Shown piece after piece: positions 8,244 to 28,245 of a DNA stretch of 64,000 bases. Origin of the DNA: Myxococcales bacterium (GTDB taxonomy: Bacteria; Myxococcota_A; UBA9042); the NCBI GenBank assembly GCA_947491025.1, contig CANLIC010000002.1:128285-192284 (forward strand), given 5' to 3'. The notes below the pieces were generated by a model. It had not been told where the DNA came from and made no database searches. It was given only the letters and a program-made list of their open reading frames with translations. Both the position numbers and the translations under genes were made by a program. Numbering within the stretch: position 1 is the first letter of the stretch; each line of letters opens with the position of its first letter.

Positions 8244-10079
8244 TCAGCCCGGGCGCTGCGCCGAGGCTGCCGTCCAGGCGGGCCGGCACAGGCGCTGTCC
8301 CGCCTCCAGCGAGGTCGCTTCGCGCAGCCAGCGCACATCGTCGAGCACCGCCGCGGCGAGGCACGCGTCCTGCCAGGCGCCCTGAAGGCGGCCTTGCGCG
8401 ATCCGCATCCGCAACGCCTGACGGAGCTTCCGGGCCACAGCGCTCGGCGTCTCGCCTGGCGGGGCTTCTGCGACGCAAGCTCCGAGCAAGGCCGTGATCT
8501 CCAGAGAGTCCGCGACGTCCGTGGCCCCTGCCGTTCGCATCTGTACGGCCCGTTCGCGCAGCGCCGCGACGTTGACGGGTGTCCGGCTCAACAGTGTGAC
8601 ACGGGCCCGCATGTCCTCGGCCGCGGCGATAGCGATGGGCTCCCCAAGCTGACCCCACAGCGCAACGGCTTCCGTCAGCAGCTCAGCGCCGAGATCGAGG
8701 GCGCCGACCCACGTCGCCACCCAGCCGGCGATGGCCGTCGCCGCCGCATCCTCCCGCGGGCCGAGCGCCTTGCCGTCGCCGTGTCGCAACGTCATCGCGC
8801 GGTCGAGGACGCCGCGTTCACCGGCGAGCACGCTCATCTCAAGCTGCGCGAGATCCATCGCGAACTGCTCGGTCGCCGTCCGTTCTTCCCCCAGCGCCGT
8901 CGCCTCGGCAAGCGCGACGCGGGCCTCGGCGAGAGACAGGCCGTGCAGGGCGATCCGGGTCCGCAACCATGCCGCGCGCCGCACCAATCGCGGTCCATGC
9001 GGCGCGACATCCACGGTTTCCAACATCGCGCGTACGCCCTTGACGTCGCCGCGGGCGGTCATGACTTCGGCCAGGGCGAGGTGGACCTCGGCAGCGCCGC
9101 GGGCGTCGCCAACCGCCTGCAGCAGCTTGTACGCCTGCTCCATGCGGCTCCGGCCGGCTTCCAGGTGCCCGAGCCGGCACTGGATCGATGCGGCGTTCAC
9201 GGCGCAGGCGATGGCGTTAGGCAAGGTGCCCGCGGCCTGAAACGCCGCCTCGGCGGCCTCGAAATGGGCGAGGGCCTCCTCAGCCGGACCGGACTCGGCC
9301 AGCATCAGACCAAAGCCCAGGCGGCCACCGCCGATCAGCTGCGGATCCTGGAGCTCGGCGCCGATCTCCAACGTCCGATCGAACATCGTCGTCGCGCGAT
9401 CGCGCTCGCCGAGGTCGCGCGCCGCGTGACCGGAATTGAGGGCCGCCAGCGCCGCCAGCCGCGGCTGTCCCTCGCGCTCAGCGGCGGCGAAGGCTTCCGC
9501 GAAGATGCGCGCGGCCTCGTCGAGCCGTGCGCGTTGTCGATAGAGATCACCGATGCAGATCAGTGCGTTGATGGCGCCCAGCGGACTCCCGGCGGCGAGG
9601 AAGCCCTGGTGCGCAGCCTCGTAGTCGTCGTGGGCCTGGTCGAGATCGCCAAAGCGCTGCCGAATGCGGCCGAGGTTGCCGCGCGCCATCGCCACGAGAT
9701 CGGCGCGGTGCGCCTGGCCAGCGGCCACGGCGGCGCGCTCGTGCTGATCGAGGGCACCGTGCAGATCGCCGAGGGTCTCAGCGATGCTGCCGAGCTCGGT
9801 GCGCGCGGTCGCTGCCCAACCGTGCATGGCGGCCGGCTCGGCTTCTTCTGCGATCCACTCGTAGAGCTCGCGGGCGCCACCGACGTCGCTGCGACGTGCC
9901 CTGGCGACGGCCGCCATCCGAGCTGCGGCGCAGGCGCTCTGCAGGTCGCCCGCGTCGACGAAGACGTCGCGCGCACGCTCGGCAAGCCGACCAGCGACGT
10001 CGAGCTGCTGGGCCTGCAGCCGCTCGCGCGCGCTGGCGAGCAGCGATCGCGCGAGCCGGGCGTCGCTCGATGTCGCCAT
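8244..10079 (-). CDS. TPR-like repeat protein
   Basis: 611 aa, Ala/Leu-rich, with repeated helical hairpins of the form A..G....A...Y..A. It is the last gene of a tightly packed minus-strand operon. Confidence 0.6.
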   Translation of the reverse strand: MATSSDARLARSLLASARERLQAQQLDVAGRLAERARDVFVDAGDLQSACAAARMAAVARARRSDVGGARELYEWIAEEAEPAAMHGWAATARTELGSIAETLGDLHGALDQHERAAVAAGQAHRADLVAMARGNLGRIRQRFGDLDQAHDDYEAAHQGFLAAGSPLGAINALICIGDLYRQRARLDEAARIFAEAFAAAEREGQPRLAALAALNSGHAARDLGERDRATTMFDRTLEIGAELQDPQLIGGGRLGFGLMLAESGPAEEALAHFEAAEAAFQAAGTLPNAIACAVNAASIQCRLGHLEAGRSRMEQAYKLLQAVGDARGAAEVHLALAEVMTARGDVKGVRAMLETVDVAPHGPRLVRRAAWLRTRIALHGLSLAEARVALAEATALGEERTATEQFAMDLAQLEMSVLAGERGVLDRAMTLRHGDGKALGPREDAAATAIAGWVATWVGALDLGAELLTEAVALWGQLGEPIAIAAAEDMRARVTLLSRTPVNVAALRERAVQMRTAGATDVADSLEITALLGACVAEAPPGETPSAVARKLRQALRMRIAQGRLQGAWQDACLAAAVLDDVRWLREATSLEAGQRLCRPAWTAASAQRPG

Positions 10080-10082
10080 CGG

Positions 10083-10898
10083 CTACACCATCACGCTGCC
10101 ACAGGAGATGTCGATGCCCTGCCCTGTGATCGGGTCGCCACCTGGGCCGATCAGGAATTGCACGTAGGCCGCCACCTCTTCGGGCTTGATCATGCGGCGC
10201 AGCGGCTGCATCGACAGCTGCTCGGCCTGGACCTGCTGCAGCGTCTTGCCGCTGAGCTGAGCGATGCGGGCCATGCCCTCATGGGCCATCTGGGTGTCGA
10301 CCCAGCCCGGGTTGAGGGCGTTGACCCGGATGCCGCGCGACGCCAGCTCATGCGCCATCGAGCGGACGATGCCGAGGATGGCGTGCTTGCTCGCCACGTA
10401 GGCAGACGAGCGCGGCACGCCGAAGCGTCCGAGCACCGAGCCGATGAAGATGACGCGGCCGTTGTTCGGCATGTGCAGCGTCGCGAGCTGGGCCAGGAAG
10501 TAGTTGCCGGTCAAGTTCACATCGATGACCTTCCGAAAGCGGGCGCGGCCCTGGGCGCTGACGTCGTCGATGGGCGTATCGGCGTTGATGCCGGAGTTGC
10601 AGATCAACACGTCCACCGGGCCGAAGCGGGACTCGGCCGCCACGATCGCCTGGTCGATGGAGGCCTCATCAGCGAGATCGAGCCGCACCGCCTGGCAGCG
10701 CTCCTGGCCAATGTCGATGGCGACGCCCAGGGTGCGGTTGTAGGAGCGTGCGCCGAGCGTCAAGCGATGCGTGCCTTCACCGAGCAGACGGGCGATGGCC
10801 TCGCCGATGCCGCGTGACGCGCCGGCGATGAAGATGTGCTTGGGCCTGTTCTGCAGGGCATCCAGGAGCTGGGACTGGGGCAACTTGACGGTGTGCAT
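10083..10898 (-). CDS. Short-chain dehydrogenase/reductase (SDR)
   Basis: IAGASRGIGEAIA (TGxxxGxG-type motif), NSGI and YVASKHAILG (YxxxK). Start set at the ATG at 10898 (MHTVKL), after GGAGGAGAG. Confidence 0.85.
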   Translation of the reverse strand: MHTVKLPQSQLLDALQNRPKHIFIAGASRGIGEAIARLLGEGTHRLTLGARSYNRTLGVAIDIGQERCQAVRLDLADEASIDQAIVAAESRFGPVDVLICNSGINADTPIDDVSAQGRARFRKVIDVNLTGNYFLAQLATLHMPNNGRVIFIGSVLGRFGVPRSSAYVASKHAILGIVRSMAHELASRGIRVNALNPGWVDTQMAHEGMARIAQLSGKTLQQVQAEQLSMQPLRRMIKPEEVAAYVQFLIGPGGDPITGQGIDISCGSVMV

Positions 10899-17720: not shown

Positions 17721-19781
17721 CTACTTGTAGTTGGCCTGGTACCACACTTCCATCTCAACCGTGCTCCAGTTGTACGACCCGCAGATGTCGTTTCGGCACG
17801 CGGTGGTGCCGTAGCCGCTCCAACCGTTGTCGCCGTCCACGACCTTGCGGCAGTCATAGTCGTGGCCGAGGTTGCAGTACCCGGTGGCCATGTCGTTGCT
17901 GTTGAAACAGAAGTCGTGCCCGCCGCCGAAGCAGGGCCCGTAGTTGGTGTGGTTGTAGATCGAGTAGCCGTGCGAGAACGTGTTCTGGTGGCCGTGGTAG
18001 AAGTTCTTCTTCACGTACTTGTGGCCATTGTCGAGGTTGAACAAGAACGAACCTTGGCAGTGGCGCGTGTACTCGTTGTAGTTGGCGGTCCACGGGCACG
18101 AGGCGTAGCCGCCGACACGGGCGCCTGTGTTCAGCTTGGCCACGACGACGGTCGGGCCCTTGTTGTTGCAGTTGTTGTGGAAGGCGCCAGCGCTCTTGCC
18201 CTCAGACCAGCGGTGGCAGAGCTTCCACTGCATCGCCGAGTTGCCGAACATCTCATTGATCATCCGACCGTCCGCGGCGGTGACGACCTTGGAGCCGAGG
18301 AACGGGTGCGCGAACGTGATCGGCATCCAGCCGTCGGGCGTGCACAGCTCGACGACACCGCCCTGGTAGCGCATGGTGCCGGCGTTGTTGCTGTCGCAGG
18401 TCACCGCCGATGGGCCAAGGCCAAGGCCAGCCCCCACCCACAGCGTACCGCCCGCGGTGCCGTGGCCATTCTCTTTGCCCCACGCCTTGCCGCCGACGTA
18501 GAGATCGCCGGCGAGATTGACCTTCTTGTTGCTCAGCGTCTTGATCTTGACGTGCCACTTGACGATGGTGCCGTCGACCTTGTTGGCCGGATCGCAGATG
18601 CCAGCGTTGCCCGGCGCCTGGACGATGCAGAACGCCGTGTCGAGGGCCTTGAGGTTCCACAGACCCTTGGGGTTGGCGCCGATCCACTTCAAGAGGTCGC
18701 CGCTCTTCGGCTTGTTCTGGCTGTTGAAGGTGACCTTGTAGTCCTTCTTGTCCTTCTCCCCACAAGGATCGCAGAGCACCCAGCCGGTCTTCTTGTCGTC
18801 GGGCGGAAGGACGGTGAGCGAGAGGGTCGAGAGGTCGGTGTTGGAGACTTCGACGTAGATCTCAAAGTCCTGCGTGGTGCCAATGTCCGGGAAGTCCAGC
18901 GTCGCGTTGGCCTCAGAGCCGGTGTTGTCCGGGATCTTGATGCCGGACTGGCCGACGATGACGTCGTCAAACTGGTTGCTCAGCAGGTTGTTCGAGATCT
19001 CGTTGAGGCCGTCCTTCGGCAGCGCCGCCGGGTCGAGCGACGCCACGCACTTCAGGCTGCCGTCGGCGTTGATGCCCTTGACCACCTCACCAGCGACCTT
19101 GCACTCGCCAGCCGGCGTCTTCAGGCCCGTCAGCTTGCTGCCGTCGCCGACGAACTCCGCCGCCGCCACCGTGCCCGAGAACGTGCCGTTCTTGGCCTTG
19201 AACGAGTTGCCGGCGAGGTCGACATCGCCGTCGAACTTCAGATCGCTGACGTTGACGCAGCCGCTGCACTCGACGTCAGCTGCCGCGCCACCCTTGGTCG
19301 CGGAGCCGGCATAGTTGAAGCCCACCTTCGCCGCCGCCACGCCACCGTTGGCGAGGTGGTCGGAGCCGATGCAACCCACGCAGCTCACCTTGCCGGCCTC
19401 GGTGGCCACCAGCGCCATCAGCGACCCGTGCAGGCGCTGCCGGGGCAGCTCGGGATCGCTAGCCACCTTCATACCGAGCCACTGCTCCTTGAGCGCCGCC
19501 ACCTTGGCGAGGTCGAGCGGCGTCGCGGAGCCGAGGGCGTGGCTGAAGCGGCCACCGGTCACCTTGACCTTCGCCGTCTCCGTCCACGTCGCAGTGCCGC
19601 CGCTGTTGGCTTCGTAGATGGCGAAGGCGACGTCATAGTCACCGTCCGCCGCCGCCGAGCCGCCGGAGCTGAGCAGGGCGCCGTCGATGAGGGAGGTGGT
19701 CGGCAGTGCGGCGAGGGCCGGCGCGGCCCAAAGAAGTGCCGCCATGAGGGTCGCCCGAAGGCCAGCGCTGAGGGTTCGCAT
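17721..19781 (-). CDS. Secreted fibre-like protein A: conserved stalk, P-domain-like module and TLDc-like C-terminal head
   Basis: Start set at the ATG at 19781 (MRTLSAGLRATLMAALLWAAPALA|ALPTTSL) after GGAG. It has CxGC motifs, FVGDGSKLTG and a proprotein-convertase P-domain-like block (IPDNTG...TDLSTLSLTVLPP...GLWNLKALD...GTIVKWHVKI). The C-terminus reads WKLCHRWSEGKSAGAFHNNCNNKGPTVVVAKL...GGYASCPW...GSFLFNL...GPCFGGGHDFCF. Confidence 0.8.
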   Translation of the reverse strand: MRTLSAGLRATLMAALLWAAPALAALPTTSLIDGALLSSGGSAAADGDYDVAFAIYEANSGGTATWTETAKVKVTGGRFSHALGSATPLDLAKVAALKEQWLGMKVASDPELPRQRLHGSLMALVATEAGKVSCVGCIGSDHLANGGVAAAKVGFNYAGSATKGGAAADVECSGCVNVSDLKFDGDVDLAGNSFKAKNGTFSGTVAAAEFVGDGSKLTGLKTPAGECKVAGEVVKGINADGSLKCVASLDPAALPKDGLNEISNNLLSNQFDDVIVGQSGIKIPDNTGSEANATLDFPDIGTTQDFEIYVEVSNTDLSTLSLTVLPPDDKKTGWVLCDPCGEKDKKDYKVTFNSQNKPKSGDLLKWIGANPKGLWNLKALDTAFCIVQAPGNAGICDPANKVDGTIVKWHVKIKTLSNKKVNLAGDLYVGGKAWGKENGHGTAGGTLWVGAGLGLGPSAVTCDSNNAGTMRYQGGVVELCTPDGWMPITFAHPFLGSKVVTAADGRMINEMFGNSAMQWKLCHRWSEGKSAGAFHNNCNNKGPTVVVAKLNTGARVGGYASCPWTANYNEYTRHCQGSFLFNLDNGHKYVKKNFYHGHQNTFSHGYSIYNHTNYGPCFGGGHDFCFNSNDMATGYCNLGHDYDCRKVVDGDNGWSGYGTTACRNDICGSYNWSTVEMEVWYQANYK

Positions 19782-19854
19782 GGTCCCAATCTCCAACTTG
19801 AGCCGGAGGTCCGCTCAAGTGCGTCCGCGGACTGCTGCGGCTCGCGAAGCTTCG

Positions 19855-21804
19855 CTACTTCGACAGCGGTCCGACGTAGTGAATCTGGTAGCGGCTGTGG
19901 TGCCCGTTCGCATTCCAGCTGTGGAACGGGTAAGGGTTGCAGCTGCCCGAGTAGTACTGAACGTAGAACGAGTCACCCGCCTTGAGCGGCCACACCTGGT
20001 CGACCTGAATGTGATGCCAGCTGGCGTCGTGGTTGTGCTCGTGAGTGTAGTAGCGGCTCGTGCCGTTGATGATGAGCTGCACGTGCTTGTGGCCGCAGCC
20101 ATGCGAGATGCCCCAGCTGTGGATGCGGTAGTAGCCAGAGATCTTCACCTTGACCGTCGCGCCGCCGTCGATCGTCAAGTAGTCCTGCGCGGTGTTCCAC
20201 TCGGTGGCATTGGTGCAGTAGTCGTACCAACCGGAGTGACCCGCCGGCTGGTTGGTACAACCGCCAGACCACATCACCGGCACCGAGGTTGCAGGGCGCC
20301 AGACGTAGCCAGCGACCTTGTCCGCGTTGTCGATGTTGGCGTCACAGACCTGCATGCCGAGCTTGGTGTCCCAACGAAGCGTGCCCACCGCGGCGGCGTC
20401 GCACGTCGGCTTGGCGTCCGCAAGCTTCACGTAGGCGTTGGCAATGTGGAGCTGGCCACCGGGATTGCCGTGGCCGTTGTCCTTGCCCCAGAGCTTGCCG
20501 GCGATGTAGACGTCACCGTTGAGGTTCACCTTCTTGCTCGACAAGGTCTTGATCTTGATGTGCCACTTCACGATGGATCCGTCGGTTTTCGCGGCGACAT
20601 CGCAGATCGCGGCGTTGCCCGGCGCCTGAACGAGGCAGAAGGCGGTGTCGAGGGCCTTGAGGTTCCAGACGCCCTTCGGGTTGGCGCCGATCCACTTCAG
20701 CAGATCGCCGCTGGCCGGCTTGTTCTGGCTGTTGAAGGTCACCTTGTAGGTCTTCTCGTCCTTCTTGCCGCAGGGGTCGCAGAGCTTCCAGCCGGTCTTC
20801 TTGTCGTCCGGCGGCAGCACGGTCAGCGCGAGCGTAGACAGGTCCGTGTTGGCCACCTCGACGTAGAGCTCGAAGTCCTGGCTGAGGCCGATGTCCGGGA
20901 AGTCCAGGGTTGCGTTGGCGTCGGCGCCCGTGTTGTCGGGGATCTTGACGCCAGCGGCGCCGGCGATGGTGTCCTCGAACTGGTTGCTCAACAGATCGTT
21001 CGAGATCTCGTTGAGGCCGTCCTTCGGCAGCGCCGCCGGGTCGAGCGACGCCACGCACTTGAGCGAGCCGTCGGCGTTGATGCCCTTGACCACCTCGCCA
21101 GCGACCTTGCACTCGCCGGCGGGTGTGGCGATGCCGGTGAGCTTGCTGCCGTCGCCGACGAACGCGGCCGCGGTGACGTTCTTGGCCGTCACATCGCCGC
21201 TGAAGGTGCCGTTCTTGGCCTTGAGCGAGTTGCCGCCGAGATCGACATCGCCGTCGAAGCTGAGCTCGGCGACGCCGACGCAGCCGGTGCAATCGAGGTC
21301 GGCCGCCGCGCCGCCCTTGGTCGCAGCGCCGGCGTAGTTGAAGCCCACCTTGGCGGCGGCGATGCTACCATTGGCGACGTGGTTCGAGCCCACGCAGCCG
21401 TCGCAGGTCACCGACAGCGCCGTGTTGGCGACGAGGCTGGTCAGCGCAGCGTGCACGGCCTGGCGGGGAAGCTCCGGGTCGTTGCCGACCTTGACGCCTA
21501 GGAAGTGCCCGGCCAGCGGCAGGAGCTTCGAGAGGTCGATGGGCTTCACGCTGCCGAGGGCGTGGGTGAAGCGGCCCCCGGCGACCTTGATCTTCGCCGT
21601 CTCCGACCAAGCAGCGTTGCCGCCCTGGATCTCCGCGTAGATCGCGAAGGTCACGTCGTAGTCGCCGTCCGCCGCCGGCGAGCCGCCGGTGGAGGTCAGG
21701 ACGCCGTCGACAAGGGAGGTCGTCGGCAGCGCTGCGAGGGCCATTGCCGGCGCCAACGTGAGCGCCAGGGTCAGCAGATGCATGATCGGACTTGAGCGTC
21801 GCAT
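19855..21804 (-). CDS. Secreted fibre-like protein B: conserved stalk, P-domain-like module and C1q/TNF-like C-terminal head
   Basis: Start set at the ATG at 21804 (MRRSSPIMHLLTLALTLAPAMALA|ALPTTSL) after GGAAGGAGA. The stalk is about 90% identical to C at nucleotide level by eye. The C-terminus reads ISGYYRIHSW...HVQLIINGTS...LKAGDSFYVQYY...SRYQIHYVG. Confidence 0.8.
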   Translation of the reverse strand: MRRSSPIMHLLTLALTLAPAMALAALPTTSLVDGVLTSTGGSPAADGDYDVTFAIYAEIQGGNAAWSETAKIKVAGGRFTHALGSVKPIDLSKLLPLAGHFLGVKVGNDPELPRQAVHAALTSLVANTALSVTCDGCVGSNHVANGSIAAAKVGFNYAGAATKGGAAADLDCTGCVGVAELSFDGDVDLGGNSLKAKNGTFSGDVTAKNVTAAAFVGDGSKLTGIATPAGECKVAGEVVKGINADGSLKCVASLDPAALPKDGLNEISNDLLSNQFEDTIAGAAGVKIPDNTGADANATLDFPDIGLSQDFELYVEVANTDLSTLALTVLPPDDKKTGWKLCDPCGKKDEKTYKVTFNSQNKPASGDLLKWIGANPKGVWNLKALDTAFCLVQAPGNAAICDVAAKTDGSIVKWHIKIKTLSSKKVNLNGDVYIAGKLWGKDNGHGNPGGQLHIANAYVKLADAKPTCDAAAVGTLRWDTKLGMQVCDANIDNADKVAGYVWRPATSVPVMWSGGCTNQPAGHSGWYDYCTNATEWNTAQDYLTIDGGATVKVKISGYYRIHSWGISHGCGHKHVQLIINGTSRYYTHEHNHDASWHHIQVDQVWPLKAGDSFYVQYYSGSCNPYPFHSWNANGHHSRYQIHYVGPLSK

Positions 21805-21842
21805 GAGAGTTCTCCTTCCTGCTTGGAATGTCGCGCTGCGGC

Positions 21843-23810
21843 TTAGAACGTGGGCGTCTTGTTCTCGTGCCAGCGTCCGGTGTACTCGATCTGCAGGCGG
21901 CTGTGCGCCGTGCCCGTGTCCCAGTGGTGCCAACGGTGTGGGTTGCAGCCGTCACCGTGGGCCTGGATCTGCACGACGTCACCAGCGCGGAGCGGCCATT
22001 GCAGGTCGGCGTAGTGGCTCGACCAGTTGTGGTTCTCGACGTCGTTGTTGTGGAAGTAGGCGCGCTGGGCCCCGTTGATGAATAGACGCAGATGCTTGCT
22101 GCCGCAACCATACTGGATCGTAAAGAAGTTGAAGCGATAGACGCCGCTCTTCTTGATGGTGACATTGCCTGCACCGGCGTCGCTGATGGTGAGATAGTCG
22201 TCGGCGGTGGTGTAGTCGACCCCGTCGAGGCAGTAGGCGGCCCAGCCGTTCTGACCTGCGGGGTGCGTCTTGCAGCCGCCCGACCACATGACCTTGCGCG
22301 GCACCGCGACGAACCATCCGTGGGTCAGCGTGCCGGCCTTGTCATACTGCTGGTCGCAGACCTGCATGCCGTAAACCGCGTCCCAGCGCATCGTGCCCAC
22401 GCCCTTGGCATCGCAGGTCGGGGTGTCGGACGCCAGCTTGATGTTGGCGTTGGCGATGTGCAGCGCGCCGCCATCGTTGCCGTGGCCGTTGTCCTTGCCC
22501 CAGAGCTTGCCGGCGATGTAAACGTCGCCGTTCAGGTTCACCTTCTTGCTCGACAGCGTCTTGATCCTGATGTGCCACTTGACGATCGAGCCGTCGGTCT
22601 TGGCGGCGACATCGCAGATGGCCGCGTTCCCGGGCGCCTGAACGAGGCAGAACGCGGTGTCGATCGCCTTGAGGTTCCAGGTGCCCTTCGGGTTGCCGCC
22701 GATCCACTTCAGCAGGTCGCCGCTCAAGGGCTTGTTTGCGCTATTGAAGGTCACCTTGTAGGCCTTCTCGTCCTTCTTGCCGCACGGATCGCAGAGCTTC
22801 CAGCCGGTCTTCTTGTCATCTGGCGGCAGAACGGTGAGCGCGAGCGTCGACAGGTCGGTGTTGGCGACCTCGACGTAGAGCTCGAAGTCCTGGCTGACGC
22901 CGATGTCCGGGAAGTCCATGGTCGCGTTGGCCTCTGCGCCCGTGTTGTCCGGAATCTTGACGCCGGCGGCACCCGCGATGGTGTCCTGGAACTGGTTGCT
23001 CAACAGATCGTTCGAGATCTCGTTGAGGCCGTCCTTCGGCAGTGCGCTCGGATCGAGCGCCGCGACGCACTTCAGCGAGCCATCGGCGTTGATGCCCTTG
23101 ACCACCTCCCCGGCGACCTTGCACTCGCCGGCCGGCGTGTTGATGCCGGTCAGCTTGCTGCCGTCGCCGACGAATGCGGCCGCCGTGACGTTCTTGGCCG
23201 TCACGTCGCCGCTGAAGGTGCCGTTCTTGGCCTTGAGCGAGTTGCCGCCGAGGTCGACGTCGCCGTCGAAGCTGAGCTCAGCGACCCCGACGCAGCCGGT
23301 GCAATCGAGGTCCGCGGCCGCGCCACCCTTGGTCGCGGCGCCCGCGTAGTTGAAGCCCACCTTGGCGGCGGCGATGCTGCCATTGGCGACGTGGTTCGAG
23401 CCCACGCAACCGTCGCAGGTCACCGAGAGCGCCGTGTTGGCGACGAGGCTGGTCAGCGCCGCGTGGATGGCCTGACGCGGTAGCTCCGGGTCGCTGCCGA
23501 CCTTGACGCTGAGGAAGTGGCCGTTGAGCGGCAGCAGCTTGCTGAGGTCAATAGGCTTGGCGCTGCCGAGCGCGTGCGTGAAGCGACCCCCGGCGACCTT
23601 TACCTTGGCCGTCTCGGACCAGGCGGCGTTGCCACCTTGGATCTCGCCGTAGATGGCGAAGGCCACGTCGTATTCGCCGTCCGCTGCCGGCGAGCCGCCG
23701 GTGGACGTTAGGACGCCGTCGACGAGCGAGGTCGTCGGCAGCGCCGCGCCCGCCGTCAGGGGCAGTCCCATTGCCGCCACCACGCTCACAAACCAGGTCT
23801 TGATACGCAT
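21843..23810 (-). CDS. Secreted fibre-like protein C: conserved stalk, P-domain-like module and a divergent C1q/TNF-like C-terminal head
   Basis: Start set at the ATG at 23810 (MRIKTWFVSVVAAMGLPLTAGA|ALPTTSL) after GGAGTGA. The C-terminus reads KSGVYRFNFF...HLRLFINGAQ...LRAGDVVQIQAHG...SRLQIEYTG. Confidence 0.8.
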   Translation of the reverse strand: MRIKTWFVSVVAAMGLPLTAGAALPTTSLVDGVLTSTGGSPAADGEYDVAFAIYGEIQGGNAAWSETAKVKVAGGRFTHALGSAKPIDLSKLLPLNGHFLSVKVGSDPELPRQAIHAALTSLVANTALSVTCDGCVGSNHVANGSIAAAKVGFNYAGAATKGGAAADLDCTGCVGVAELSFDGDVDLGGNSLKAKNGTFSGDVTAKNVTAAAFVGDGSKLTGINTPAGECKVAGEVVKGINADGSLKCVAALDPSALPKDGLNEISNDLLSNQFQDTIAGAAGVKIPDNTGAEANATMDFPDIGVSQDFELYVEVANTDLSTLALTVLPPDDKKTGWKLCDPCGKKDEKAYKVTFNSANKPLSGDLLKWIGGNPKGTWNLKAIDTAFCLVQAPGNAAICDVAAKTDGSIVKWHIRIKTLSSKKVNLNGDVYIAGKLWGKDNGHGNDGGALHIANANIKLASDTPTCDAKGVGTMRWDAVYGMQVCDQQYDKAGTLTHGWFVAVPRKVMWSGGCKTHPAGQNGWAAYCLDGVDYTTADDYLTISDAGAGNVTIKKSGVYRFNFFTIQYGCGSKHLRLFINGAQRAYFHNNDVENHNWSSHYADLQWPLRAGDVVQIQAHGDGCNPHRWHHWDTGTAHSRLQIEYTGRWHENKTPTF

Positions 23811-23958: not shown

Positions 23959-26900
23959 CTACTTGCCGAGCAGCGAAAGGACCCAGCCGAAGAAGCCGAA
24001 GTCCGCGCTGTTCTTAGCATCTTGCGGCGCTGGGGCCTTGCCCGCCACGTTGCTCATGCCGATCTGTGCCTGCATGCCGAACTTGTCGCCCTTGCTCGAG
24101 AGCGAGCCGTTGCCGTGCCGCGCCACGAACGCCGTCGGGGCGCAGCCCTCGTCGGTGATACCGTCGCAGTCGTTGTCCTTGCCGTCGCAGAGCTCCTCGG
24201 TCGGGCCCTTGTCGCCCTTGCAGACGCCCAAGGAGCCGTCGGCCTGGCAGAGCTTGACGCCGTCCTTGCACTCGCCCTTGCCGCGTGTCTTGGCGTCGTG
24301 GCTGTAGCAGGCATCCGAGAGGTTGGTGTTGACGACGTTGGCGCAGCCCTTGCTGGTGCTGCAGCTGTCCTCCGTGCAGACATTGCCGTCCTCGCAGGTC
24401 AGCGTCTTGCCCGCGATGCAAACCCACGCGCCGCTGGCGTTCTTGCCGCAGTTGTCGCCCGAGGTGCAGGCGTTGTCGTCGCTGCAGGACTGAATGAGCT
24501 CCTTGAAGCCGCACTTGCCGGTGGTCGTGTCGCAGCTATCGGAGGTGCACGGATTCTTGTCGTCGCAGGTGGTCTGCTTGCCCGCCACGCACTTGCCGGA
24601 CTGGCAGGCGTCGCCCGCGGTGCAGGCGTCGTCGTCGGCGTTGCAGTCCCCGCCCTGCGCGGTGTGGACGCAGCCCAGCTTGGGATCGCAGGAGTCGGCG
24701 GTGCAGGCATTCTTGTCGTCGCAGACCAAGAGCTTGCCGGGCTTGCAAGCGCCGGCGGCGCACGCGTCCTGCGTGGTGCACAGCGACTCATCTGCGTCAC
24801 AGGAGGCGCCGTCGGTTTTGAGCGTTGCGACGCACTTGCCGAGCTTCACGTCGCAGTCGGTCTTCTTGCAGAAGTTGTCCGAAGACGTGTCGCAAGCGAT
24901 CACGGTCACGGGGTTGATCTTGCACTGCTTGTCTTTGTCGCAGAAGAGCGTGCCGTTGCAAGCGTTGCCGTCTTCTTTGCCGGCGCAGTCGAGGTCCTTC
25001 TCGCAGCCGCAGGTGTTGGCGCCGCCCTTGCACTTGCCCTGGACGCAGGCGTCGTTCTGCGTGCAGCTGTTGCCGTCGTCGCAGGTCTTGCCGTCGAGGA
25101 CCTTGTTGAGGCAGCCGGACTTGCTGTCGCAGACGTCGAGCGTGCAGTCGTTGCCGTCGTCGCACTTGACCTTGTCGTTGAACGGCGCGCCCTTGCAGAT
25201 GCCGCCCTGGCAGGCGTCGAGCTCCGTGCAGGCGTCGTCGTCATTGCAGGGGCCCGACAGCGGCGTCGCGACACATCCGGCCTTGGGATCGCAGGCGTCC
25301 GACGTGCAGGTGCTCTTGTCGTCGCAGGTCAGGAGCGGACCGGGCTTGCAGATGCCGTCGGTGCAGGCGTCGGTGGTGGTGCAGACGTTGTCGTCGGCCT
25401 TGCACGGCGTGCCGTCCTTCTCTTTGCTGATGCCGCACTTGCCCGAGGTCGGGTTGCAGGCGTTCTGCTGGCAGGTTGAGTTCAGCGAGGTGTCGCAGTT
25501 GACGACGGTGCCGGGGTTGACCTTGCACTGGAAGGGCTGCGCGGACTTGTCGCAGTACAGCGTGCCGTTGCAGAGGTTGCCGTCTTCTTTGCTGGCGCAG
25601 TCGATGTCGGCGTTGCAGCCGCAGGTGTTGACGCCGGCAGCGCACTTGCCGTCCTTGCAGAAGTCATTCTTGGTGCAAGCGTTGCCGTCGTCGCAGATCG
25701 CGACATCGTCTGCGTTGTGGACGCAGCCCTTCTCGGCGTCGCAGACGTCGGTGGTGCAGGGGTTTCCGTCGTCGCACTTGACCTTGACGTCGATGGGCTG
25801 GCCGGCGCACTTACCCTTGGCGCAGCTGTCGCCGGCGGTGCAAGCGTTGCCATCCTCGCAGTTGGCGCCGTCGCCGACGGACGAGAAGATGCACCCCTTG
25901 ACCGCGTCGCACTGGTCGGTGGTGCAGGGATTCTTGTCATTGCAGTCCAGGTTCTTGCCACCCACGCAGGTGTAGAGCTTGGTGGTCGGTTCGACCCCGC
26001 AGGCGTCGTCGGTCGTGCAGAGGTTGGCGTCGTCGCACTTGTCGACGCGCGGCTTGTTGGCGCACTTGCCCGTCGCCTTCTCGCACAGATCGTCGGTGCA
26101 GAACTCCTTGTCGTCACAGTCCTTGCCCTTGCCGGGGACGCAGGTGCCGCTGGCGCAGACGTCGAGGACGGTGCAGGAGTCGCCGTCGGCGTCGCAGGGC
26201 GTGGTGTTCGGTTTGAACGAGCAGCCGTTCTTTGCGTCGCAGGCGTCGTCTGTGCAGGGGTTCTTGTCGTCGCAGCCAACGAGCGCGCCAGTCTGGCAGG
26301 TGCCGGCCTTGCACTGATCGTCCTTGGTGCACACCGAGCTATCCGAGTCGCAGGGCTTGCCGTCGGTCGCTTGGGTGATCGCGCACTTGCCGGTGGACGC
26401 GTTGCAGGCGTTCTGCTGGCACTCGCCGTTCAGGCTGGTGTCGCAGGCGACCACGGTGGTCGGCTTGACTTTGCACTGGAAGGGCTTGGCGCTGATGTCG
26501 CAGAAGAGCGTGCCGTTGCACAGGTTGCCGTCTTCCTTGGTCGCGCAGTCCTTGTCCGCCTCGCAGCCGCAGTTGTTGGGGCCTGAGATGCACTTGCCGT
26601 TCTGACAGGCGTCGTTGAGCGTGCAGACGTTGCCGTCGTCGCAGGGGCCGGCGATTTTGGGCGTGTGGACGCAGCCGGCCTTGGCCTCGCAGCTGTCGGT
26701 GGTGCAGGCGTCGTTGTCGTTGCAGCTTGCGGTGACATCGATCGCGATGCCGACGCACTTGCCGGCTTCGCAGTTGTCCTTCTGGGTGCAGGAGTCGGCG
26801 TCGTTGCAGGGGCCCGCGGCGGCCTTGTGGAGGCAGCCCGTCGCCGGATCGCAGCTGTCGGCGGTGCATGGGCTGCCGTCGTCGCAGTTCACCGCGCCGC

Positions 26901-28245
26901 CCTTGCAGGTCTCTTGGGCGCACAGCTCATTGGACGTGCAGGGGTTGCCGTCGTTGCAGGGCTGACCGTTCTTGTTGTTGTACGTGCACTTGCCGTCTGC
27001 CAGGTTGCACTTGCCGAGCATGCAGGTGTCGCCGGAGTCGCAGGCCTTGGCGCTGCCGGCGAGGCAGGTGCCGTCCTTGCACTGGTCGGCGACCGTGCAG
27101 GGGTTGTCGTCGGCGTTACAGGGATCGCCGCTGGCCGGCGCGGTCTGGCAGCCGAGCTTGGCGTCGCAACTGTCGTTGGTGCAGGGATTGGCGTCGTTGC
27201 AGGCCTTGGCCGCGCCAGCCTTGCACTTGCCGGCGTCGCAGCTGTCGTTCTCGGTGCAGATCGAGCCGTCGGCATCGCAGGGTGCGCCGGTGTTGGCGTT
27301 GTGCGTGCAGCCCTTGTCGCCACTACAGGCGTCGGTGGTACAGGGGTTTCCGTCGTCGCAGGTGCCGTCGTCGGTCTTGCCGTTGCAGTCGTTGTCGACG
27401 CCGTCGCAAGTCTCGGTGGAGGCCTTGGGGGCGTCGCAGGCGGTCAGGCCGCCACCGTCAGGGGCGCCAGGCGCGCCGGCAGGCAGACAGGTCCGGCTGC
27501 CAGCGCACGTGCCGCCGTTGCTGTGGGGCACGTGGCAGGTGGTGGTCGCGCCCGCGGCGATGGCGCCCGGCGAGCACGCGCAAACTTCATTCGGCGGCAT
27601 CACGCAGTACTTCGCGGACTTGCCGGTGATGTCGGTGGCGGTCTCGCAGAGGGCCCCTTGCGGGCAGTCGACGGTGCTGTTGCAGCTGTTGCCGCAGAAT
27701 GAACCGTCGTTGCCACGCTTGATGCACGCGGCGTTGAGGGCGCCGGCGGCGCCGCAGCTGTCGTTGGTCGTGCAAGGGGCGCAGTGGGTGGCGAATTTGG
27801 GGACGCAGACCTTGTCTACCGCGCTGCCCGTGCCCGCGATCTCGACGCAGGTCTCACCCTCAGGACAAGCGCCGTCGTCGCACTTCTGAGCGCAGACTTT
27901 GGTGGCCTTGCCGGCCTGGATGCAGTGGCCAGAGTAGCAGCCGTCGTCCGCCTTGCACTCGCAGCCGGGGCCGCCAGGGCAGGAAAGGGAGACCTCCGCG
28001 CCGTCCACGGCGGTGTCGCTTTCGACGGTGTCGACGCCGACGGTGTCACCCGCCACGTCGCTGCCTTCGCCGACATCGCCCGCCGTGACGTCGGTGCCGC
28101 CGGTGCTGGTTTCCTCGCCTTCCACCGTGGTGTCGCCGTCGCCGCAGCCGATGGCCAGGACTGCGAGAAATGTGAACGCAACGACCAGCCGAAGGGGCTG
28201 TGGCGCTGTGCACGCGCCAAGCTGCAAACGCAGGAAGTCGTTCAT
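23959..28245 (-). CDS. Giant Cys-rich repeat lipoprotein (1428 aa; CTDC-like CDDGNxCTxDxC repeats, two CDGxDNDC(D/N)G motifs)
   Basis: Lipobox FLAVLAIGC, then an acidic linker, then roughly 13% Cys by hand count. It has three super-repeats, each opening with CGC(E/N)xDxDCAxKEDGNxCNGTLxCD. Its C-terminus reads ELCDGKDNDCDGITDEGC...ADFGFFGWVLSLLGK. Confidence 0.85.
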   Translation of the reverse strand: MNDFLRLQLGACTAPQPLRLVVAFTFLAVLAIGCGDGDTTVEGEETSTGGTDVTAGDVGEGSDVAGDTVGVDTVESDTAVDGAEVSLSCPGGPGCECKADDGCYSGHCIQAGKATKVCAQKCDDGACPEGETCVEIAGTGSAVDKVCVPKFATHCAPCTTNDSCGAAGALNAACIKRGNDGSFCGNSCNSTVDCPQGALCETATDITGKSAKYCVMPPNEVCACSPGAIAAGATTTCHVPHSNGGTCAGSRTCLPAGAPGAPDGGGLTACDAPKASTETCDGVDNDCNGKTDDGTCDDGNPCTTDACSGDKGCTHNANTGAPCDADGSICTENDSCDAGKCKAGAAKACNDANPCTNDSCDAKLGCQTAPASGDPCNADDNPCTVADQCKDGTCLAGSAKACDSGDTCMLGKCNLADGKCTYNNKNGQPCNDGNPCTSNELCAQETCKGGAVNCDDGSPCTADSCDPATGCLHKAAAGPCNDADSCTQKDNCEAGKCVGIAIDVTASCNDNDACTTDSCEAKAGCVHTPKIAGPCDDGNVCTLNDACQNGKCISGPNNCGCEADKDCATKEDGNLCNGTLFCDISAKPFQCKVKPTTVVACDTSLNGECQQNACNASTGKCAITQATDGKPCDSDSSVCTKDDQCKAGTCQTGALVGCDDKNPCTDDACDAKNGCSFKPNTTPCDADGDSCTVLDVCASGTCVPGKGKDCDDKEFCTDDLCEKATGKCANKPRVDKCDDANLCTTDDACGVEPTTKLYTCVGGKNLDCNDKNPCTTDQCDAVKGCIFSSVGDGANCEDGNACTAGDSCAKGKCAGQPIDVKVKCDDGNPCTTDVCDAEKGCVHNADDVAICDDGNACTKNDFCKDGKCAAGVNTCGCNADIDCASKEDGNLCNGTLYCDKSAQPFQCKVNPGTVVNCDTSLNSTCQQNACNPTSGKCGISKEKDGTPCKADDNVCTTTDACTDGICKPGPLLTCDDKSTCTSDACDPKAGCVATPLSGPCNDDDACTELDACQGGICKGAPFNDKVKCDDGNDCTLDVCDSKSGCLNKVLDGKTCDDGNSCTQNDACVQGKCKGGANTCGCEKDLDCAGKEDGNACNGTLFCDKDKQCKINPVTVIACDTSSDNFCKKTDCDVKLGKCVATLKTDGASCDADESLCTTQDACAAGACKPGKLLVCDDKNACTADSCDPKLGCVHTAQGGDCNADDDACTAGDACQSGKCVAGKQTTCDDKNPCTSDSCDTTTGKCGFKELIQSCSDDNACTSGDNCGKNASGAWVCIAGKTLTCEDGNVCTEDSCSTSKGCANVVNTNLSDACYSHDAKTRGKGECKDGVKLCQADGSLGVCKGDKGPTEELCDGKDNDCDGITDEGCAPTAFVARHGNGSLSSKGDKFGMQAQIGMSNVAGKAPAPQDAKNSADFGFFGWVLSLLGK

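What the first reader, a model, noticed from the sequence alone, without database searches (positions are those of the whole stretch)
19855..23810. Mosaic junction between paralogs B and C: about 90% DNA identity in the stalk falls away at the neck
I aligned B and C by eye. From the signal-peptide cleavage site to ...GKLWGKDNGHGN they are about 90% identical at DNA level and more so at protein level. This covers B 20460-21730 and C 22470-23740. Many of the differences are synonymous. Downstream, through the neck and head (B 19855-20450, C 21843-22465), similarity drops to roughly one third at protein level, although the fold type appears the same. Such a discontinuity is expected if heads are exchanged by recombination at the conserved stalk. 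It would also arise if the heads are under diversifying selection while the stalk is homogenised by gene conversion. Paralog A shares the stalk at lower identity and has an unrelated head. This implies at least two independent head replacements.
Basis: seen in the sequence. Interest (0 to 1): 0.6.

Follow-up and report, generated by a model that had tools for sequence, protein, structure and literature searches.

The report
Swapped heads on a conserved scaffold
Two neighbouring genes for secreted proteins in an uncultured myxobacterium share a nearly identical 420-residue front part but carry anciently diverged binding heads, and comparison with related genomes shows that recombination at one fixed junction made this mosaic, here and repeatedly across a large, unnamed gene family.

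Summary
B (19855-21804, minus) and C (21843-23810, minus) are about 90% identical in DNA and 95% in protein from the signal-peptide cleavage site to ...GKLWGKDNGHGN. Identity then breaks at B 20466 / C 22478 (max chi-square 225; 1000 permutations gave at most 17).

The break is a recombination junction, not differential decay.
- The scaffold tree joins B and C with the B orthologue of a sister species.
- The head tree joins B's head with its orthologues in two congeners (88-92% identity) and C's head with heads from two other genera (62-71%).
- Each data set rejects the other's grouping (AU p = 3.5e-8 and 1.8e-27).

Orthologous heads are under purifying selection (omega 0.08-0.19), so diversifying selection is not supported.

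Four other tandem pairs break within about 10 residues of the same junction (genomes G000, G013, G024, G001); A/B in G000 and G017 break there too. The genes belong to an unnamed family with 25 copies in this genome and about 19-44 matches in most genomes of the same taxonomic family. Each member has a signal peptide, a conserved scaffold and a variable head (C1q/TNF-like, TLDc, fibrinogen/COLFI-like or Cys-rich). It is a new variant of the constant-anchor, swappable-tip design known from phage tail fibres and Bdellovibrio MAT fibres.

The parts
21843..23810 (-). Gene C (655 aa): signal peptide, scaffold, neck and C1q/TNF-like head of the 'C lineage'
   Evidence: ORF and start. Weak Pfam C1q/BclA_C hits. 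Its head clusters with heads from two other genera at 100/100 support.
22476..23744 (-). C scaffold (residues 23-445), 95% aa / ~90% nt identical to the B scaffold
21846..22475 (-). C neck (22347-22475) plus head (21846-22346). 42-47% aa identity to B. 71% to the head of G019_C342 in another genus, whose adjoining scaffold is only 34% identical.
19855..21804 (-). Gene B (649 aa): signal peptide (21733-21804), scaffold, neck and C1q/TNF-like head of the 'B lineage'
   Evidence: AF2 model. Foldseek matches to Cbln1, C1qA, EDA-A1 and CD40L with TMt 0.55-0.67, prob 1.0.
20464..21732 (-). B scaffold (residues 25-447). N-terminal beta-sandwich at ~21448-21732, low-confidence Gly/Cys-rich segment, P-domain-like beta-sandwich at ~20533-20985.
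   Evidence: Weak Pfam P_proprotein hits in paralogues.
19858..20463 (-). B neck (20335-20463, motif C-x6-G-x-[LM]-R-W...C) plus head (19858-20334). 88-92% identical to heads in two congeners.
   Evidence: Site patterns in neck and head group B with G002_B, not with C.
20464..20468 (-). B side of the mosaic breakpoint (max chi-square at 20466, just after ...GKLWGKDNGHGN)
22476..22480 (-). C side of the mosaic breakpoint (max chi-square at 22478)
21805..21842 (-). 38-nt C-B spacer with GGAAGGAG before the B start. There is no room for another gene, so co-transcription is likely (inferred).
17721..19781 (-). Gene A (686 aa): same scaffold at 76-77% aa identity (about 18459-19709), with a TLDc head (about 17742-18290)
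   Evidence: Orthologues with TLDc heads sit at the same position in G002 and G017.
23959..28245 (-). Context, not part of the mosaic: a 1428-aa Cys-rich protein immediately upstream of C. It stays next to the family locus in four other genomes.
   Evidence: G002 85%, G017 66%, G013 62%; G014 46%

Best explanation
A, B and C are tandem members of a large, unnamed family of Sec-secreted modular proteins in an uncultured Myxococcota lineage. Each member has a constant N-terminal scaffold of about 420 residues: a beta-sandwich, a Cys/Gly-rich segment and a P-domain-like beta-sandwich. A short Cys-bridged neck follows, then an interchangeable C-terminal head that is probably ligand-binding. B and C carry C1q/TNF-like heads, A carries TLDc, and other members carry fibrinogen/COLFI-like or Cys-rich heads.

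The B/C discontinuity is a recombination junction. The C scaffold derives from the B-lineage scaffold at about the time this species split from its sister species. The C head belongs to a head lineage that separated from the B head before the genera of this taxonomic family diverged.

The conserved scaffold DNA serves as the homology for two processes. One is gene conversion between neighbouring copies. The other is unequal or double crossover, which moves, duplicates or deletes the unit 'head - spacer - next signal peptide'.

What is shown: the breakpoint, the incongruent histories, purifying selection on heads, and recurrence of the junction. What is inferred: the molecular route (conversion of an old resident C, or a new head joined to a duplicated B scaffold), trimer formation, and a role in surface or prey recognition.
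For: 1. Breakpoint. Chi-square is 225 against at most 17 in permutations, at B 20466 / C 22478.

2. Scaffold tree. (B,C) has 98/84 support and (B,C,G002_B) has 100/100. G001_B groups with its tandem neighbour G001_x.

3. Head tree. (B,G001_B,G002_B) has 100/100 and (C,G019_C342,G014_C61) has 100/100. The AU test on head data rejects a B+C clade (p = 3.5e-8). The AU test on scaffold data rejects the head-tree clade (B,G001_B,G002_B) (p = 1.8e-27).

4. Identities. B vs G001_B is 71% in the scaffold and 92% in the head. C vs G019_C342 is 71% in the head and 34% in the adjoining scaffold.

5. Three-way site patterns for B, C and G002_B. The scaffold is star-like (75/57/56). The neck (30/5/8) and head (150/24/25) group B with G002_B. 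The switch falls at the junction.

6. Synteny. G002 and G017 have nth-A-B-Cys-rich with no C. G013 and G007 have a single B-type gene at this locus.

7. Recurrence. Tandem pairs in G013 (scaffold nt mismatch 0.6%, head 54%), G024, G001 and a second pair in G000 all break at B-residue 436-455. A/B in G000 (446) and G017 (449) break there too.

8. Ongoing conversion. G001_B and G001_x share ~560 nt of 100% identity running from -180 to +380.

9. Selection. Head orthologues have omega 0.08-0.19.

10. Family size. There are 25 full copies in this genome and about 19-44 matches in most genomes of the same taxonomic family. 306 representatives at 50% clustering match at E <= 1e-30, and in the listed full-length matches the scaffold starts just after the signal peptide.

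11. Folds. One search gives Kex2/furin P domain and C1q/TNF. Pfam gives TLDc, COLFI/Fibrinogen_C and DUF4215 heads.
Against: The direction of the event is unresolved. Scaffold data do not significantly reject (B,G002_B) with C outside (AU p = 0.073).

The synonymous-site test is weak because GC3 = 0.91 brings sites near saturation. Four-fold sites differ at 0.317 in the scaffold and 0.467 in the head (p = 0.06).

All genomes compared are metagenome-assembled. The two closest relatives of the C head sit on truncated contigs.

Function, oligomeric state and cellular location are untested. The AF2 monomer model is only moderate (mean pLDDT 72.4, pTM 0.44).
Confidence: 0.85

Rival explanations
1. 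Simple tandem duplication of one gene with no later exchange. The scaffold stayed similar under strong constraint, and the two heads diverged fast, possibly under diversifying selection.
For: B-C head omega is 0.58-0.62 against 0.09 in the scaffold. The two heads share a fold type. Four-fold synonymous differences in scaffold and head differ only marginally (p = 0.06).
Against: Head data reject B and C as sisters (AU p = 3.5e-8). The C head is 62-71% identical to heads of other genera, whose scaffolds are 34-43% identical. B-head orthologues are conserved, with omega 0.08-0.19. In G013 a tandem pair shows 0.6% scaffold mismatch against 54% head mismatch, which divergence alone cannot produce.
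Confidence: 0.04
2. Assembly artefact. The metagenome assembler mis-joined or collapsed repeated scaffold sequences, creating an apparent chimera.
For: The family is highly repetitive, and several relatives end at contig edges inside these genes. The 100%-identical tract in G001 is the kind of signal a collapsed repeat could give.
Against: B and C differ at about 10% of scaffold positions spread along the whole length, and their longest exact match is 54 nt. They lie on a 285-kb contig. The same junction is seen in independent assemblies from different studies. G002 carries a collinear B orthologue at ~88% nt identity in both scaffold and head.
Confidence: 0.04
3. Sub-hypothesis on direction (a). 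The ancestor of this species and G002 already had C and B in tandem with homogenised scaffolds. G002 then lost 'C head - spacer - B signal peptide' by unequal crossover between the two scaffolds.
For: The G002_B signal peptide is most like C's (alignment score 46, others at most 38). B's is most like that of the outgroup G017_B (31). In the signal-peptide region C-G002_B shared sites number 14, against 9 and 5 for the other pairings. The three scaffolds are star-like. G002 has no C between B and the Cys-rich gene.
Against: Signal peptides are short and compositionally biased. The upstream intergenic DNA aligns poorly. G017, G013 and G007 also lack C at this site, and no C-type head was found in G001 or G002 (G002 is only 58% complete).
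Confidence: 0.4
4. Sub-hypothesis on direction (b). C is new in this lineage. A duplicated or converted B-type scaffold received a C-type head from a lost paralogue or from another member of the same taxonomic family. The route would be transfer plus double crossover in the flanking scaffolds.
For: C is absent from the syntenic site in all five other genomes examined. The nearest C-type heads are in other genera (69-71% and 57-62% identity). There is no second C-type head in this genome.
Against: This does not explain why the G002_B signal peptide resembles C's. The 62-71% identity to other genera is in the range of vertically inherited heads such as A vs G017_A (62-65%), so transfer is not required.
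Confidence: 0.4

Closest known systems
Bdellovibrio bacteriovorus MAT (mosaic adhesive trimer) fibre superfamily (Caulton et al. 2024, PMC10769870)
   Same: Both are multi-copy families in a (probable) predator lineage. Both have an invariant N-terminal part and diverse C-terminal tips, including TNF/C1q-like folds. The MAT authors themselves propose 'tip swapping'.
   Different: No sequence match was found between B and the solved MAT tips. No S74 protease/chaperone domain was found. The scaffold here contains a P-domain-like beta-sandwich rather than a long beta-prism shaft. Homology of the N-terminal domains was not tested. Here recombination is demonstrated by comparative phylogeny, whereas for MAT it was only suggested.
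Phage and tailocin tail fibres / receptor-binding proteins with a conserved N-terminal anchor and recombining C-terminal tips (e.g. localized recombination in syringacins, Baltrus et al. 2019, cited in PMC12923769)
   Same: A conserved 5' part provides homology and the 3' binding domain is exchanged, giving a sharp identity break at a domain boundary. BFVD fold hits are mostly phage tail and receptor-binding proteins, some carrying P-domain or TNF-like modules.
   Different: These proteins have Sec signal peptides. They are dispersed at 25 copies per genome, lie in no phage or tailocin context, and give no PHROG match for the scaffold.
eCIS tail fibres with eBAP anchor domains and swapped receptor-binding domains, including C1q (PMC12923769)
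   Same: Same constant-anchor, variable-RBD logic. C1q domains are used as tips, and multi-fibre loci are enriched in Myxococcota.
   Different: No eCIS locus is adjacent. The proteins are exported by Sec, which eCIS fibres are not. No relation to eBAP domains was tested.
Polymorphic toxin loci (Rhs, CdiA) with C-terminal cassette displacement
   Same: A conserved N-terminal body with a sharply demarcated variable C-terminus exchanged by homologous recombination.
   Different: The heads here have lectin or adhesin-type folds, not toxin folds. No immunity gene follows, because the spacers are only 38 and 73 nt.

Membership tests
Bdellovibrio MAT fibre superfamily | Diverse C-terminal adhesive tips on a conserved N-terminal part, with many paralogues per genome | tested here: met
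   25 paralogues with TLDc, C1q-like, COLFI/fibrinogen-like, DUF4215 or unassigned heads
Bdellovibrio MAT fibre superfamily | N-terminal domain homologous to the MAT N-terminal domain | not tested
   No MAT N-terminal sequence or structure was on hand. The region-restricted homologue search did not reach Bdellovibrio.
Bdellovibrio MAT fibre superfamily | Intertwined homotrimeric beta-prism shaft | not testable with these tools
   Only a monomer AF2 model is available. Residues 100-210 have pLDDT below 50.
Bdellovibrio MAT fibre superfamily | S74 autoproteolytic chaperone domain (S74 subfamily only) | tested here: not met
   No Peptidase_S74 hit in 23 of the 25 family members scanned
C1q/TNF-like jelly-roll domain (heads of B and C) | Fold similarity to solved C1q/TNF domains | tested here: met
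   B model against Cbln1, C1qA, EDA-A1, CD40L and Cbln4: prob 1.0, TMt 0.55-0.67. The model's confidence in the head is moderate.
C1q/TNF-like jelly-roll domain (heads of B and C) | Pfam C1q (PF00386) at gathering score | tested here: not met
   C scores 14.0 bits against a cut-off of 23.7. B has no hit. This is a fold-level relative only.
TLDc domain (head of A) | Pfam PF07534 at gathering score | tested here: met
   54.9 bits against a cut-off of 24.5, residues 498-680. NCBIfam PEP_CTERM_TLD_A scores 75 bits, below its cut-off of 100.
Proprotein-convertase P domain (in the scaffold) | P-domain beta-sandwich fold | tested here: met
   Foldseek to Kex2 and furin P domains: prob 1.0, 156-166 columns, rmsd 4-5 A. 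Pfam PF01483 scores sit at or just below the cut-off in paralogues (17.5-21.1 against 21). There is no subtilisin domain, so this is not a convertase.
Phage / eCIS tail fibre | Encoded in a tail or baseplate gene cluster and not Sec-exported | tested here: not met
   All 25 copies have N-terminal signal peptides. Neighbours are nth, a porin-like gene and a Cys-rich protein. No PHROG hit for the scaffold.
Polymorphic toxin (Rhs/CdiA type) | C-terminal toxin domain followed by a cognate immunity gene | tested here: not met
   Heads have lectin-like folds. The spacers of 38 and 73 nt leave no room for an ORF.

The most novel reading that the evidence does not exclude
The family may be the prey- or surface-recognition repertoire of an uncultured, possibly predatory Myxococcota lineage. 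It would be an independent or very distant counterpart of Bdellovibrio MAT fibres. In this reading the conserved scaffold DNA has a second role as a built-in recombination handle: head cassettes are shuffled, duplicated and deleted among roughly 19-44 loci per genome and between species. That would amount to a genome-wide combinatorial system for diversifying binding specificity.
Probability: 0.3. Interest if true: 0.75.

Novelty: new variant of a known kind. Interest (0 to 1): 0.58.

Why it matters
The constant-anchor, swappable-tip design with recombination at the joint is well known for phage tail fibres. It was recently proposed for Bdellovibrio MAT fibres.

This locus adds a comparative demonstration for a different protein family. 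That family is unnamed, and database entries call it only 'hypothetical protein' or name it after the head domain. It is expanded to dozens of copies per genome throughout an uncultured Myxococcota family.

The locus provides:
- dated examples of scaffold conversion and head exchange;
- a defined junction, just after the last scaffold strand and before a Cys-bridged neck;
- a catalogue of animal-like lectin folds (C1q/TNF, fibrinogen/COLFI-like, TLDc) used as bacterial extracellular tips.

If these proteins mediate prey or surface recognition, the junction would be a natural site for domain-swap experiments in laboratory expression systems. Head repertoires could also serve as markers of ecological specialisation in these uncultured bacteria.

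Tried and rejected
1. Synonymous-site dating of scaffold against head. GC3 is 0.91 and four-fold sites are close to saturation even between congeners (0.32-0.47). The B-C contrast is only p = 0.06. I dropped this as the decisive test and used tree incongruence instead.

2. Diversifying selection. The high B-C head omega (0.6) disappears among true head orthologues (0.08-0.19). Rejected.

4. Sequence search of B against PDB. Only a spurious hit at E = 0.69.

5. PHROGs. No match for the scaffold.

6. Region-restricted homologue search with the N-terminal domain, meant to reach named Bdellovibrio proteins. It returned only the same uncultured lineage.

7. Alignment of upstream intergenic DNA of C, B and G002_B to prove positional orthology. 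It was too diverged to be conclusive. The signal-peptide comparison is only suggestive.

8. Search for silent or orphan B/C-type head cassettes elsewhere in the genome. None were found, only other head types on other genes.

9. Promoter and terminator scan. Nothing above background.

10. Synteny of the G014 relative of the C head. It lies next to another family member and a Cys-rich homologue, but in a different order, so it says nothing about ancestry.


Full report
**What is there.** Three minus-strand genes lie head to tail: A (17721-19781, 686 aa), B (19855-21804, 649 aa) and C (21843-23810, 655 aa). Each begins with a Sec-type signal peptide ending in ...A-x-A, followed by AALPTTS. The C-B spacer is 38 nt with a GGAAGGAG ribosome-binding site, and the B-A spacer is 73 nt. 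The window is G000:C2:128285-192284 of a 4.46-Mb, 62-contig, 83%-complete metagenome-assembled genome of about 69% G+C. Record titles of its relatives place it among uncultured Myxococcota / 'Myxococcales'.

**Check of the observation.**
- A codon-based alignment gives B-C nucleotide identity of 0.83-0.97 from the cleavage site to ...GKLWGKDNGHGN (B 20464-21732, C 22476-23744).
- Identity is 0.70-0.77 over the next ~35 codons and 0.50-0.69 to the end.
- The maximum chi-square change point is at B 20466 / C 22478. Mismatch is 9.8% to the left and 39.1% to the right. Chi-square is 225, whereas 1000 permutations never exceeded 17.2.
- Protein identity is 95% in the scaffold, 65% in the neck and 42-47% in the head.
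- A shares the scaffold at 76-77% and has a TLDc head (PF07534, 54.9 bits).

**What the parts are.** I built an AlphaFold2 model of mature B from a 53-sequence family alignment (mean pLDDT 72.4). It shows:
- a confident N-terminal beta-sandwich (residues 1-95);
- a poorly modelled Gly/Cys-rich segment (about 100-210);
- a confident beta-sandwich (about 250-400);
- a low-confidence linker (409-440);
- a beta-rich C-terminal domain.

Foldseek against the PDB matches the middle sandwich to the P domains of Kex2 and furin (prob 1.0, about 160 columns). It matches the C-terminal domain to C1q/TNF-family jelly rolls such as Cbln1, C1qA, EDA-A1 and CD40L (TMt 0.55-0.67). Pfam gives sub-threshold C1q/BclA_C hits for C and near-threshold P_proprotein hits in paralogues. 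The 'stalk' is therefore better described as a multi-domain scaffold. 'Neck' and 'head' remain apt terms.

**A large family.**
- The scaffold occurs in 25 full-length genes of this genome. All have a signal peptide, and total lengths run from 457 to 831 aa.
- Heads include TLDc, the N-terminal part of COLFI/fibrinogen_C, DUF4215 Cys-rich repeats, C1q-like domains and several with no Pfam match.
- Scaffolds that are 65-77% identical carry heads with no detectable similarity.
- Most genomes of the same GTDB family have about 19-44 matches. Most other families of the class have 0-6.
- A full HMMER scan of 1.84 billion cluster representatives finds 306 at E <= 1e-30. In the listed full-length matches the scaffold begins about 20-55 residues into the protein, that is, just after a signal peptide.
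- Where database entries have names, they say 'hypothetical protein' or name only the head domain.

**Is the break a recombination junction?** Comparative data say yes.
- *Orthologues.* In the sister species G002, B's orthologue is about 88% identical in DNA in both scaffold and head (92% / 90% protein). In congener G001, the gene carrying the B head (92% identical) has a scaffold only 71% identical to B's.
- *Nearest relatives of the C head.* They are not B-type heads. They are heads from two other genera, G019_C342 (71%) and G014_C61 (62%). Their adjoining scaffold parts are only 34-43% identical to C's.
- *Scaffold tree.* It gives (B,C) 98/84 and (B,C,G002_B) 100/100, and puts G001_B with its tandem neighbour G001_x.
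- *Head tree.* It gives (B,G001_B,G002_B) 100/100 and (C,G019,G014) 100/100.
- *AU tests.* Head data reject B+C (p = 3.5e-8). Scaffold data reject (B,G001_B,G002_B) (p = 1.8e-27). Scaffold data also disfavour joining A with its syntenic, head-orthologous G017_A (p = 0.011).
- *Site patterns among B, C and G002_B.* They are star-like in the scaffold (75/57/56). They switch at the junction to B+G002_B in the neck (30/5/8) and head (150/24/25). The intermediate identity of the neck therefore reflects constraint on a conserved Cys-bridged motif, not partial conversion.

**Selection.** Among true orthologues of the B head, omega is 0.08-0.19. The scaffold of B vs G002_B gives 0.10. Heads are conserved once in place. 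The B-C head omega of about 0.6 is an artefact of ancient divergence with saturated synonymous sites, since GC3 is 0.91. For the same reason the four-fold-site contrast (0.317 against 0.467, p = 0.06) is only weakly informative. The diversifying-selection alternative is not supported.

**Recurrence and mechanism.**
- The same junction recurs in other tandem pairs. Change points fall at B-residue 436 (G013_C82a/b), 448 (G024_a/b), 445 (G001_B/x), 455 (the second tandem pair in this genome, on contig 24), 446 (A/B) and 449 (G017 A/B).
- In G013 the two scaffolds differ at 0.6% of nucleotides and the heads at 54%. Divergence after duplication cannot produce this.
- In G001 the two neighbours share about 560 nt of 100% identity, from 180 nt upstream of the start to +380. 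A second identical patch follows, then 75-85% identity, then unrelated heads. This looks like a recent conversion tract, with the caveat that it comes from a metagenome assembly.
- In a tandem array each 'head - spacer - signal peptide' unit is flanked by directly repeated scaffold DNA. Conversion, unequal crossover and double crossover with foreign DNA are all expected outcomes. That step is inference.

**Synteny and direction.**
- This genome has nth, A, B, C, then a 1428-aa Cys-rich gene.
- G002 has A, B and the Cys-rich gene (85% identical) with no C.
- G017, in another genus, has nth, A, a B-position gene and the Cys-rich gene.
- G013 and G007 have one B-type gene at this site.
- No C-type head was found in G001 (93% complete) or G002 (58% complete).
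- The G002_B signal peptide is closest to C's. B's is closest to that of G017's B-position gene.

This pattern fits an ancestral C-B pair from which G002 lost 'C head - spacer - B signal peptide' by unequal crossover. The signal is weak, and the upstream DNA is too diverged to settle it. The alternative is a C-type head newly joined to a duplicated or converted B scaffold in this lineage, and it is about equally likely. The scaffold trichotomy of B, C and G002_B is unresolved (AU p = 0.073).

**Artefact check.** B and C differ throughout the scaffold, and their longest exact match is 54 nt. They lie inside a 285-kb contig. The mosaic junction is seen in independent assemblies from different projects.

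**Comparison with known systems.** The logic matches four known systems: phage and tailocin tail fibres, eCIS fibres with eBAP anchors and swapped receptor-binding domains including C1q (PMC12923769), Bdellovibrio MAT fibres, and polymorphic toxins.
- *MAT fibres.* The MAT authors found TNF-like and other tips on an invariant N-terminal domain and suggested 'tip swapping' (PMC10769870). Membership of MAT is not established. There is no sequence match to solved MAT tips and no S74 domain, the scaffold architecture differs, and N-terminal homology is untested.
- *Tail fibres.* These proteins are not phage or eCIS fibres. They carry signal peptides, have no tail-gene context and give no PHROG hit.
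- *Polymorphic toxins.* They are not toxin loci, because there is no toxin fold and no room for an immunity gene.

**Verdict.** The recombination reading is supported by formal tests, and the diversifying-selection option is not. The finding is a well-documented instance of a known evolutionary design in a new, uncharacterised and strongly expanded protein family of uncultured Myxococcota. I classify it as a new variant of a known kind, of moderate to good interest.

Noticed in passing
L063 (G001:C1:66000-84000), minus strand, genes at about 8305-10227 and 6681-7985: Two tandem family genes in a congener share a ~560-nt tract of 100% identity covering the 5' untranslated region, the signal peptide and the first ~125 codons. 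A second identical patch follows, while their heads are unrelated. This is either a very recent conversion tract or a collapsed repeat in the assembly.
   Followed up: partly
window 23959-28245 (-): A 1428-aa Cys-rich repeat protein lies next to the family locus in G002 (85%), G017 (66%), G013 (62%) and G014 (46%, different gene order). This suggests a functional link between it and the scaffold-head proteins.
   Followed up: partly
G000 contig C8:3114-7859: Three tandem genes carry TLDc-type domains (38-42% identical to the TLDc head of family member C13_27954) but lack the family scaffold. The same head types are therefore also used on other protein bodies.
   Followed up: no
G000 contig C27:33247-34620 (L018): One family member (457 aa) ends right after the neck motif and has no head. 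It may be a headless scaffold or the remnant of a head deletion.
   Followed up: no
L113-L115 (other phyla, e.g. a Lewinellaceae MAG): The first ~100-130 residues of the scaffold (the N-terminal beta-sandwich, motif ...GGxPxxDGDYDVTFxLYD...WSE...) occur at the N-terminus of very different long fibre-like proteins in other phyla. One has a C-terminus that, by eye, resembles a phage tail-collar domain (not scanned). This domain is a widespread anchor-type module.
   Followed up: partly
window 19782-19854: The B-A spacer contains an inverted repeat (CTTGAGC...GCTCAAG) with no T-run. It could be a terminator or a processing hairpin between B and A.
   Followed up: no
G017 (L064) and G001:C5 (L065): The gene at the B position in genus g7 (G017_B) carries a head whose closest relative is G001_C5, on a different contig of congener G001 (98/95 support). 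It is not the B head. Head type at this syntenic site therefore differs between genera.
   Followed up: partly
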